DNA of 64,000 bases. Source: the human T2T-CHM13v2.0 reference genome, Homo sapiens. Shown in pieces: positions 25,929 to 27,987 of this stretch. The position numbers and the translations under genes were made by a program. The first letter of the stretch is position 1; the number at the start of each line of letters is the position of its first letter. The notes under the pieces were generated by a model, which saw only the letters and a list, made by a program, of their open reading frames with translations, ran no database searches and was not told where the DNA came from. The DNA is taken from the NCBI RefSeq assembly GCF_009914755.1, contig NC_060944.1; one strand, written 5' to 3'.

Positions 25929-26070
25929 GTGTGGCACTGCACACCAGCCTGGGTGACGGAAAACGTGTCCTTGGCCAAATAGTGGTATCCTGCTCAATGA
26001 GGGATAATGTTATTTATGCTATAATATCTACCTATTATTTATTCTGTAGTGTTCTGCATTGACACTATAG

Positions 26071-27193
26071 TTTTTTATTTTTATTTTTTTATTGAGATGG
26101 AGTCTCACTCTGTCATCCAGCGAGGCTGAGGTGGGTGGGTCAGAGACCTCAAGTTTGAGACCAGCCTGACAAACATGGCGAAACCCTGTCTCTACTAAAA
26201 ATACAAAATTAGTCGGGCATGGTGGCGTATACCTGTAATCCCAGCTAATTGGGAGGCTGAGACAAGAGAATCACTTGAACTCGGGAGGCAGAGGTTGCAG
26301 TGAGCCGAGATTGTGCCATTACACTCCATCCTGGGCCACAAGAGGGAGACTCCATCTCAAAAAAAAAAAAAAAAAAACGGGGCGGGGGGAATATCTTATA
26401 ATTACTTTCCTAAAGATAGCTTTCAAAAATTACAGTGTCGAGAAGGCTCATACCTGTAATCCCAGCCCTTTGGGAGGACAACACAGAAGAATAGTTTGAG
26501 ACCATCCTGAGCAAAATAGCAAGAATGCATCTCTACAAAACATAAGAAAAATTAGCCAGTAGCACACCTGTAATCCCAGTTACTCAGGAGGCTGAGGCAG
26601 GAGGAGGCTAAGCCCAGGAGGTTGAGGCTGGAGTGACCTGTGATCATGTCACTGCACTGTGCCTGAGAGACAGAGCAAGACCCGGCCTCAAAAATGTAAA
26701 AATAAATTCAAAAAATGAACAATAATTTAAAAACTACAGCGTCAGACGGGCATGGTGGCTCACACTTGTAGTCCCAGCACTTTGGGAGTCCGAGGCGGGC
26801 AGATCACCTGAGATCAGGAGTTCGAGACCAGTCTGGCCAACATAGTGAAACCCCATCTCTACTAAAAATATAAAAATTAGCTGGGTGTGGTGGTGCATGC
26901 CTGTAATTCCAGCTACTCAGGAGGCTGAGGCAGGAGAATCCCTTGAACCTAGCAGGCAGAGGTTACAGTGAGCTGAGAGCGTGCCACTGCACTCCAGCCT
27001 GAGCAACAGAGTGAGACTCCATCTTAAAATATAAAAATAAAAAACTATAGCCAGGTGCAGTGGCTCACGCCTATAATCCTAGACTTCGGGAGGCCGAGGT
27101 GGGCAGATCACAAGGTCCAGAGTTCGAGACCAGCCTGACCAACATGGTGAAACCCTGTGCTGGGATTACAGGTGTGAACCACCATGCCCAGCC
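26071..27193. mobile_element. Four-Alu cluster rearranged by an internal inversion (26121-27157)
   Basis: Minus tail 26071-26120; plus elements 26121-26377, 26445-26715, 26744-27045, 27049-27157; minus head 27157-27193. Confidence 0.88.
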
Positions 27194-27987
27194 AAGACAT
27201 TCTTTAAAAATGCCTAGCAAATATAGTAAAAAGTAAAAATTCTCTTTCACCTCATCGCTGAAAGTTTCTGTATATTTTCAGGCTTTTTGGTATACCTTTA
27301 TACACATCTGTAATACTCACGCAGTGTTTTTTCTAAATGGAATGATACTGTACATAATACTTTGCAGTTTTTATAATTTACAGTCAGATGGGAAGGACAC
27401 AAAACTATTCTAGAAGATCTTTGCTTTAAACAGTAGTGAAGACATTTATCTCTTCTGTTGTTTTAAGTGCCTTGGAACAGATTTTATGAACAACAGCAAC
27501 ATTCGATATTGATTTGCTCAGTGTTAGTAGTGAGATGCCTTTAGTAGTGAGATCACACCTTTCAGAGAACTTTCTAAATGCTCTGTAAATAAAAGCAGAT
27601 ATGTGATGGACTGCTTCATGATGTTGCCAAGCACCATTCACATCCTTTTCCCTTTCTCAGAAAGTGCAGAGTCATCCATTTTGGAGCAGTTAGTTCTTGC
27701 AGATCTACCAATTACCTGTGGTTATAGGAGATGATGTTTCTCTATCTGCCTGAAAGTGGAAAAAGGAATTAATGAACCTGTGAAGTTCAGTTCTGTAACT
27801 AGACAGAGCTGTGCTGGAAATGAAAATAAGTCCTTTCTGTTATTCATGACATATGGGAAGAAAAGCTTCAGGTAGATCAAGCTCTGCAGGCCTAAATCCA
27901 CAGAAGCCTTGCCAATTTTCAGCTCATTATTGCCATCAAGGTATTTTGGTGATTATTTCCACTATTGTAAACTAATTCATAGGACTG

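What the first reader, a model, noticed from the sequence alone, without database searches (positions are those of the whole stretch)
26061..27202. Cryptic ~1.04-kb inversion (26121-27157) hidden in an Alu cluster
Seen: a minus-strand Alu tail (26071-26120) is fused to a headless plus Alu, and a plus left arm (27049-27157) is fused to a minus Alu head (27157-27193). Reverse-complementing 26121-27157 repairs the cluster. (a) ...cccacctcagcctc joins gtgctgggattacagg as in consensus, missing only ~5 nt. (b) That Alu's TSD becomes direct: gaatatctt 26389-26397 (rc aagatattc) vs aagacattc 27194-27202. (c) atagttttttattttt 26067-26082 is the exact reverse complement of 27033-27048, giving the TSD of the other split Alu. 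(d) gacactatagttttt 26061-26075 (rc aaaaactatagtgtc) pairs with aaaaactacagcgtc 26729-26743. The breakpoints lie at non-homologous positions of two originally co-oriented Alus, with ~150 bp lost at one junction. This is not simple inverted-Alu recombination; end joining or template switching is inferred.
Basis: partly seen in the sequence, partly recalled or inferred. Interest (0 to 1): 0.75.

Follow-up and report, generated by a model that had tools for sequence, protein, structure and literature searches.

The report
Hidden 1-kb inversion splits two Alus
In the first intron of the human CBFA2T2 gene, two Alu repeats are each cut into two pieces that face opposite ways, most likely because the 1-kb stretch between them was flipped by faulty DNA repair; this is an ordinary kind of small rearrangement, and no effect on the gene is shown.

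Summary
Re-inverting 26121-27157 joins a minus-strand Alu head (consensus 1-37) to a plus-strand body (43-282), giving one full Alu. It also restores a second Alu (1-113 + 256-282) that lacks about 142 nt. That Alu's 20-nt target-site duplication is exact but lies inverted across the left breakpoint (score reached by 5 of 3192 mismatched flank pairs). The cluster's target motif occurs three times in the window, all here: twice on +, once on -. The first Alu's 9-nt TSD is weak alone (316 of 3192).

Both breakpoints lie at non-homologous positions, with 2 nt of inferred microhomology on the right and one unassigned base on the left, so inverted-Alu recombination is excluded. Best reading (0.65): a small inversion with flanking deletion made by end joining or template switching after the Alus inserted, a well-described class. 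Primate outgroups would separate the two; none were available here. Age, polymorphism and function are untested. The segment is intronic and holds no annotated exon or enhancer.

The parts
26121..27157 (.). Inverted segment (left end 26121-26122, right end 27156-27158)
   Evidence: Re-inversion restores two Alus and their TSDs
26094..26120 (-). Alu C 3' stub, consensus 256-282
26085..26093 (-). Residual A-tail of Alu C (9 nt)
26065..26084 (-). Outer copy of Alu C's 20-nt TSD
   Evidence: 20 of 20 to 27031-27050; 5 of 3192 null pairs
26060..26075 (-). Outer copy of the shared target site (3' TSD of Alu B), inverted relative to its partners
   Evidence: 14 of 16 to 26729-26744; motif found 3 times in window, 0.21 expected
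26121..26121 (.). Left junction: one base matching neither Alu consensus
26122..26358 (+). Alu A body, consensus 43-282 (Sq/Sp-like; name recalled)
26140..26152 (+). Clustered changes in Alu A's internal palindrome, 20-30 nt inside the left junction
   Evidence: 9 edits in consensus 59-78; 2 of 57 window Alus have as many; a 7-mer matches the reverse strand
26359..26397 (+). Alu A tail, G-rich stretch and 3' TSD (26389-26397)
   Evidence: 8 of 9 to reverse complement of 27194-27202; weak alone
26425..26439 (+). 5' TSD of the J-like Alu: first copy of the shared target site
   Evidence: 13 of 15 to 26729-26743; 26 of 3192 null pairs
26443..26689 (+). Old, J-like Alu carried inside the inversion
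   Evidence: 40 of 208 non-CpG differences
26729..26744 (+). Second copy of target site: 3' TSD of J-like Alu and 5' TSD of Alu B
26744..27025 (+). Alu B, full length (Sx-like; name recalled)
27031..27050 (+). Inner copy of Alu C's TSD, in Alu B's tail
27050..27158 (+). Alu C left arm, consensus 2-113 (Sg-like; name recalled)
27157..27158 (.). Right junction: 2-nt microhomology (C 112-113 / A 37-36), inferred from consensus
27157..27193 (-). Alu A head, consensus 1-37
27194..27202 (-). 5' TSD of Alu A, preceded by a T-run/A-run of endonuclease-site type
25623..25906 (+). Neighbour Alu D: tail-to-tail with C at 187 nt before the inversion; no TSD found

Best explanation
The 1.04-kb stretch 26121-27157 was likely flipped in place by non-homologous repair after all four Alus had inserted, cutting two of them in half. 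Shown by the sequence: four orphan Alu pieces at two junctions, complementary in pairs; target-site copies that face each other across the breakpoints; junctions at non-homologous Alu positions. Inferred: the site first received a J-like Alu, then Alu B into its 3' target copy, then Alu C into B's tail, and separately Alu A 42 nt away, all on the minus strand. Breaks or polymerase template switches then fell in A (after position 37) and in C; the segment was rejoined reversed, using 2 nt of microhomology at one end and leaving one stray base at the other, with 3-5 nt of A and about 142 nt of C lost. End joining and replication template switching cannot be told apart; I lean to template switching because of clustered changes near the left junction. 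The event is likely neutral.
For: Head and body rejoin into one full-model hit. C's TSD is 20 of 20 but inverted. The target motif occurs 3 times in 64 kb, all here, the outer copy reversed; shuffles gave at most 1 (pattern chosen after seeing the copies). Wrong pairings score at chance: 2957, 2450 and 1650 of 3192. One J TSD copy lies inside and a copy of the same site outside, so the segment is native to this site. No paralogue or second copy of either junction was found in this genome (these searches give lower bounds). Diagnostics do not conflict: C's stub is ungapped, as in 10 of 13 window Alus with C's 2-nt gap, while A's end has an extra base. One-sided deletion is usual: 159 of 733 inversions, 75 of 252, 14% of 229. 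Alus cover 63% of 24001-29500, so two breaks in Alus need no special cause.
Against: No outgroup or second human haplotype was seen. A's TSD is weak alone (316 of 3192). The C and B TSD matches overlap. Microhomology and loss sizes rest on a consensus, not the true ancestor. The whole 142-nt loss lies inside C, the element with the best-kept TSD, which the insertion-coupled rival predicts outright and this reading leaves to chance. The diagnostic test is weak (27 nt of stub; a 37-nt head with little subfamily signal).
Confidence: 0.65

Rival explanations
1. Insertion-coupled inversion. Alu C was never whole: reverse transcription from the nick in B's tail stopped after 27 nt of body, a second DNA break in Alu A primed a second cDNA on the same Alu RNA at position 113 (twin priming by a distant end), and the ends were joined crosswise, inverting the 1 kb between and leaving the middle of C uncopied. 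All steps are inferred.
For: Predicts in one step what is seen: a 3' stub with tail at one junction, an intact 5' start on an exact TSD at the other end, the middle absent, 2-nt microhomology at the second priming site, little loss in A. C has the best-kept TSD of the four (20/20 against 8/9, 14/16, 13/15), as expected of the last insertion. L1-machinery insertions with inversion of target DNA are reported: 3 cases in cell clones (PMC11702581, passages); 1 inversion among 6 sequenced rearrangements (PMC13526784, passages); reciprocal inversions with halves of one L1 at the two junctions in tumours (10.1101/2024.08.27.596794, passages).
Against: [quoted passage not shown] In tumours the tail-primed cDNA is the longer product (median 1.51 against 0.54 kb); here it would be the shorter. 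The break in A does not resemble the nT/AAAn endonuclease motif quoted. All precedents are somatic L1 or pseudogene events.
Confidence: 0.22
2. Homologous recombination between inverted Alus (RRMI / TEMR-HR), followed by deletions that hid the crossover points.
For: Alus lie at both breakpoints; 12 of 49 RRMI loci carry deletions and 4 of 7 Alu-mediated inversions have complex junctions.
Against: The TSDs assign head and body to one element and left arm and stub to another, both on the same strand before the event; neither junction makes an in-register chimeric Alu (37 to 113, 256 to 43).
Confidence: 0.04
3. No inversion: independent truncated Alu insertions and deletions happen to abut, or the outer stub is an inverted duplicate of B's end.
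For: Short Alu stubs occur elsewhere in the window (8 hits under 70 model positions, 2 of them here). A's TSD is weak. The stub and B share a 19-nt run.
Against: Needs complementary cut points (37/43), an inverted exact 20-mer and a reversed third target copy by chance. The stub differs from B at 5 of 27 positions and 15 of 57 unrelated window Alus match it as well or better; the head differs from C's left arm at 12 of 37.
Confidence: 0.04
4. Assembly error in this reference.
For: Inversions in repeat-rich DNA are sometimes assembly errors (one such case in Lee 2008).
Against: Mis-assembly swaps similar copies in register; it does not make out-of-register junctions with loss of 142 nt. The segment is short against long reads (general knowledge).
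Confidence: 0.02

Closest known systems
Inversion with adjacent deletion ('Inv and Del'; Sudmant 2015, PMC4617611; Schloissnig 2025, PMC12350158)
   Same: About 1 kb, two junctions, loss at one end, little or no homology; attributed there to replication-based or end-joining repair (passages).
   Different: Those are polymorphisms seen against another haplotype; this one is in the reference and is inferred from split Alus alone.
TEMR-NHE, transposon-mediated rearrangement by non-homologous repair (Balachandran 2022, PMC9675761)
   Same: Both breakpoints in Alus, no in-register chimera; complex Alu inversions had median 1097 bp with 38-251 bp deletions (passages).
   Different: All 15 inversions there had elements in opposite orientation in the reference; here the two were co-oriented before the event, so the Alus look like bystanders.
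Retrotransposon recombination-mediated inversion, RRMI (Lee 2008, PMC2603318)
   Same: Sub-kilobase to kilobase inversion with Alus at both ends, sometimes with deletion (parts 1-2 of 6 read).
   Different: RRMI needs two oppositely oriented elements that become chimeras; not met here.
Retrotransposition-mediated inversions (PMC11702581; PMC13526784; bioRxiv 10.1101/2024.08.27.596794)
   Same: An element split over two junctions, TSD kept but separated, short microhomology (passages).
   Different: Described for L1 and pseudogene RNA in tumours and cell lines, mostly over larger distances; not for a germline Alu in what I read.
[quoted passage not shown]
   Same: Closely spaced same-strand Alus attributed to insertion within an existing TSD (passages); here three Alus stack at one site.
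   Different: Nothing essential; it is what makes the inversion readable.

Membership tests
Inversion with adjacent deletion (Inv-Del) | Segment reversed relative to its flanks | tested here: met
   Re-inversion restores two Alus and three TSD pairs; internal evidence only
Inversion with adjacent deletion (Inv-Del) | Sequence lost next to a breakpoint | tested here: inconclusive
   Consensus 114-255 of C is absent, but whether it was ever present needs an outgroup; 3-5 nt of A are absent
Inversion with adjacent deletion (Inv-Del) | No long homology at junctions | tested here: met
   2 nt right, 0-1 nt left
Inversion with adjacent deletion (Inv-Del) | Un-inverted allele observed in another haplotype or species | not testable with these tools
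   The genome search holds no relatives for this window
RRMI / TEMR-HR | Two elements in opposite orientation before the event | tested here: not met
   TSD pairing makes A and C co-oriented after re-inversion
RRMI / TEMR-HR | Chimeric full-length elements with in-register junctions | tested here: not met
   Junctions join 37 to 113 and 256 to 43
Retrotransposition-mediated inversion | Tail and TSD of one insertion split between the two sides | tested here: met
   C's tail and outer TSD outside, 5' part and inner TSD inside; also expected under the best explanation
Retrotransposition-mediated inversion | Endonuclease motif or independent break at the second site | tested here: inconclusive
   A 38-42 is a T-run followed by G, a poor match to the motif; an unrelated break leaves no mark
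Retrotransposition-mediated inversion | No intermediate allele with the intact insertion | not testable with these tools
   Needs primate orthologues
Twin-primed or transduced insertion from another locus | Source copy elsewhere and whole block flanked by one direct TSD | tested here: not met
   No source found; copies of one target site lie inside and outside the segment
Inverted-Alu-pair instability as trigger | Close inverted pair before the event, relieved after it | tested here: inconclusive
   D and C were inverted at 187 nt, 77-85% alike today; but of 9 Alus within about 2 kb, 3 were inverted to the cluster before and 6 are now, nearest 552 nt

The most novel reading that the evidence does not exclude
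A fossil of a germline Alu insertion that itself inverted 1 kb of chromosome: one Alu RNA primed twice, once at its target and once at a break 900 bp away, leaving its two ends at opposite breakpoints. If so, twin priming does act on Alu RNA, the insertion-driven inversions known from tumours also shaped the primate germline, and such events can be found genome-wide from split Alus with inverted TSDs.
Probability: 0.22. Interest if true: 0.6.

Novelty: new member of a known kind. Interest (0 to 1): 0.3.

Why it matters
As a post-insertion inversion it matters little: one more small, probably neutral intronic rearrangement, usable as a primate phylogenetic marker and as an example that nested Alu TSDs record inversions without an outgroup. 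It turned four antisense Alus into sense Alus within CBFA2T2 and put two AATAAA hexamers on the gene strand (26701, 27036; none before); no effect on splicing or polyadenylation was tested. It would matter more if outgroups show that Alu C and the inversion arose together, because Alu RNA is presumed too short for twin priming.

Tried and rejected
Own-genome searches for a paralogue, a source copy or an old repeat spanning the empty site: each of the three unique pieces hit only itself; the 1481-nt query gave only Alu-level matches besides itself among 40 scored of 17750 candidates; neither junction was matched across elsewhere. Breakpoint scan by summed alignment score: many ties, uninformative. 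Dating by transcription-strand mutation bias: 2 against 3 events in the segment, no power. First TSD null was swamped by poly-A matches and was redone with composition-aware scores; the null still includes tandem Alus and is conservative. Outer stub as a duplicate of B's end, and head as a copy of C, B, D or E: rejected. Head A as the partner of the headless Alu at 24218-24368, whose 3' flank matches A's 5' flank at 10 of 12: rejected, since 14 other places in the window match at 10 or more of 12 and that Alu starts at 133, not near 38. Catalogues: no paper holds CBFA2T2 + inversion + Alu; Lee 2008 Table S1 (49 of 252 loci) has two chr20 rows, neither here; Feuk 2005 Table S1 has no human chr20 row starting at 31 Mb (the locus's place in that build, about 31.57 Mb, is recalled). 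Term searches in supplements of PMC12350158, PMC4617611, PMC9675761 (1 file unreadable) and PMC13629690 found nothing, but I did not confirm that these files hold inversion coordinates in the form searched; in PMC13629690 even 'chr20' was absent, so these four blanks carry little weight. Rfam gave only the expected SRP-like and Alu-derived miRNA matches below threshold.

Full report
Setting. The finding lies in intron 1 of CBFA2T2 (hub annotation), about 25 kb from exon 1, with no listed exon in the segment and the nearest RefSeq enhancer starting 500 bp to the right (27700). No repeat library was available, so I built an Alu profile from the window itself: 29 seed copies gave 108 hits, and 57 near-full-length copies outside 25.2-27.3 kb gave the working profile and a 282-nt consensus. 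Subfamily names below are recalled labels, not tool results.

Anatomy. Left to right: a minus-strand Alu 3' stub with tail (26085-26120, consensus 256-282); a headless plus Alu A (26122-26358, 43-282); 42 nt of unique DNA; an old J-like Alu (26443-26689; 40 of 208 non-CpG differences against a window median of 6.9%); full Alu B (26744-27025); the left arm of Alu C (27050-27158, 2-113); a minus-strand Alu head (27157-27193, 1-37). Of 34 adjacent opposite-strand pairs among 107 neighbours in the window, 5 lie within 60 nt, and only these two junctions have both partners cut off at the join.

Test of the inversion. Reversing 26121-27157 in a script turns head and body into one model 1-282 hit of 251 bits and places C's left arm directly against the stub on the same strand. 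TSDs were scored with a composition-aware anchored scan, against 3192 mismatched flank pairs from the 57 intact Alus. C: 20 of 20, 27031-27050 against the reverse complement of 26065-26084, reached by 5 null pairs and by 2 of 57 genuine TSDs. B: 14 of 16, 31 null pairs. A: 8 of 9, 316 null pairs, so weak alone. Wrong pairings scored at chance (2957, 2450 and 1650 of 3192). The C and B matches overlap by 11 bases. A 15-nt version of the target site occurs three times in the window with up to 2 mismatches: 26425-26439 (+), 26729-26743 (+) and 26061-26075 (-); shuffles gave 0.21 on average and never more than 1 (the pattern was derived from these copies, so this shows clustering, not a blind test). 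The simplest history is that the J-like Alu, B and C inserted one after another at one site, each into the previous one's tail or target copy, a pattern noted for close direct Alu pairs (PMC3215922, passages). The last copy of the site is now reversed and outside the segment while the first is inside, so the DNA is native to this place and was turned in place.

Diagnostics do not separate the rejoined halves. C's left arm has the 2-nt gap near position 65; 10 of 13 window Alus with that gap have an ungapped 3' end like the stub, while A's own end carries an extra base found in 14 of 41 Alus without the gap. The stub is not a copy of B's end (5 of 27 differences; 15 of 57 unrelated Alus do as well) and the head is not a copy of C's, B's, D's or E's (12, 6, 5 and 11 of 37). 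These tests are weak because the pieces are short.

Junctions. Right: 27157-27158 fit both C 112-113 and A 37-36, a 2-nt microhomology inferred from the consensus. Left: 26120 fits C 256 (and A 41), 26121 fits neither, 26122 is A 43. A lacks 3-5 nt, C lacks 114-255 (142 nt). Neither junction is in register, which excludes recombination between inverted Alus as defined by Lee 2008 (PMC2603318, parts 1-2 of 6 and Table S1 rows). Alus cover 63% of 24001-29500, so both breaks falling in Alus needs no explanation. Twenty to thirty bases inside the left junction, A's internal palindrome carries 9 edits in 20 positions, a level reached by 2 of 57 window Alus, including a 7-mer that matches the opposite strand and is seen in 0 of 57. 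This was noticed after the fact and may be unrelated, but it tilts me towards a replicative template switch.

Mechanism. Best (0.65): all four Alus were in place; two breaks or template switches, one in A and one in C, reversed the segment with one-sided loss. This is the Inv-Del class: 159 of 733 inversions in PMC12350158 (passages), 14% of 229 in PMC4617611 (passages), 75 of 252 human-chimpanzee inversions with deletions; complex Alu-bounded inversions of about 1.1 kb are in PMC9675761 (passages). A possible trigger is the neighbour D, which stood tail-to-tail with C at 187 nt; diverged, spaced Alu pairs can interact in single-stranded DNA (PMC10164571, abstract). Against a simple story of relief, the flip raised the number of inverted neighbours within about 2 kb from 3 to 6 of 9, though the nearest moved from 187 to 552 nt.

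Rival (0.22). Tracing strands shows that one event can give the same sequence: a short cDNA from the target nick (the stub), a second cDNA primed on the same RNA at position 113 by the broken end of A, second-strand synthesis from the target's other end, and crosswise ligation. It explains why the loss is wholly inside C and why C has the best-kept TSD. Comparable outcomes are reported for L1 in cell clones and tumours (PMC11702581, PMC13526784, 10.1101/2024.08.27.596794; passages; the figure S9 cited there was not seen). Against it: Alus are presumed too short for twin priming (PMC4859970, passage), the tail-primed product is normally the longer one, and A's break is not a good endonuclease site. 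A search for Alu + insertion-mediated + inversion + twin priming + germline listed 6 papers; I read passages of three of these works (one in its earlier PMC version) and saw no germline Alu case. The odds between the two are my judgement.

Age and status. [quoted passage not shown] No lower bound is shown. Its absence from the Feuk 2005 human-chimpanzee list (PMC1270012, Table S1 search; build position recalled) hints that it is shared with chimpanzee, but that list used a draft genome. The strand-bias clock had no power. The locus is single-copy as far as the genome search sees. I found no description in print (and the supplement searches under Tried and rejected), which is weak evidence: public SV databases and whole-genome alignment nets could not be consulted, and a UCSC-type net may already show it.

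Verdict. A real, neatly readable small inversion of a known kind, with no sign of function. Interest 0.3, carried mostly by the testable chance that it records an Alu insertion that inverted its own neighbourhood.

Noticed in passing
window 25623-25961: Alu D has no TSD (its 5' flank 14-mer has no partner nearby) and its tail runs straight into an orphan Alu piece (model 237-268) that is not a closer copy of D, A or B than of other window Alus. Possibly a separate deletion, or part of the same event.
   Followed up: partly
window 23932-24368: A full minus-strand Alu's head is fused within 3 nt to the right arm (133-282) of a plus-strand Alu, with no obvious TSD by eye. May be a deletion at an inverted Alu pair or another rearrangement.
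   Followed up: partly
window 26425-27050 and 26060-26084: Three Alus of different ages (J-like, B, C) stacked at a single target site, leaving four copies of it.
   Followed up: yes
window 26378-26388: An 11-nt G-rich stretch sits between Alu A's A-tail and its 3' TSD; probably decayed tail.
   Followed up: no
window 846-64000: Alu hits over 100 nt in this intron, outside the cluster, are 62 antisense to 30 sense relative to the gene; the re-inverted cluster follows the majority strand.
   Followed up: no
window 8575-9292: A left-arm monomer and a full Alu, both minus, appear to share one T-rich target site, next to a plus-strand right-arm monomer (by eye); no sign of inversion.
   Followed up: partly
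window 38443-38726 and 47639-48009: Runs of overlapping or interleaved Alu fragments in the profile hits, perhaps internal duplications or nested insertions.
   Followed up: no
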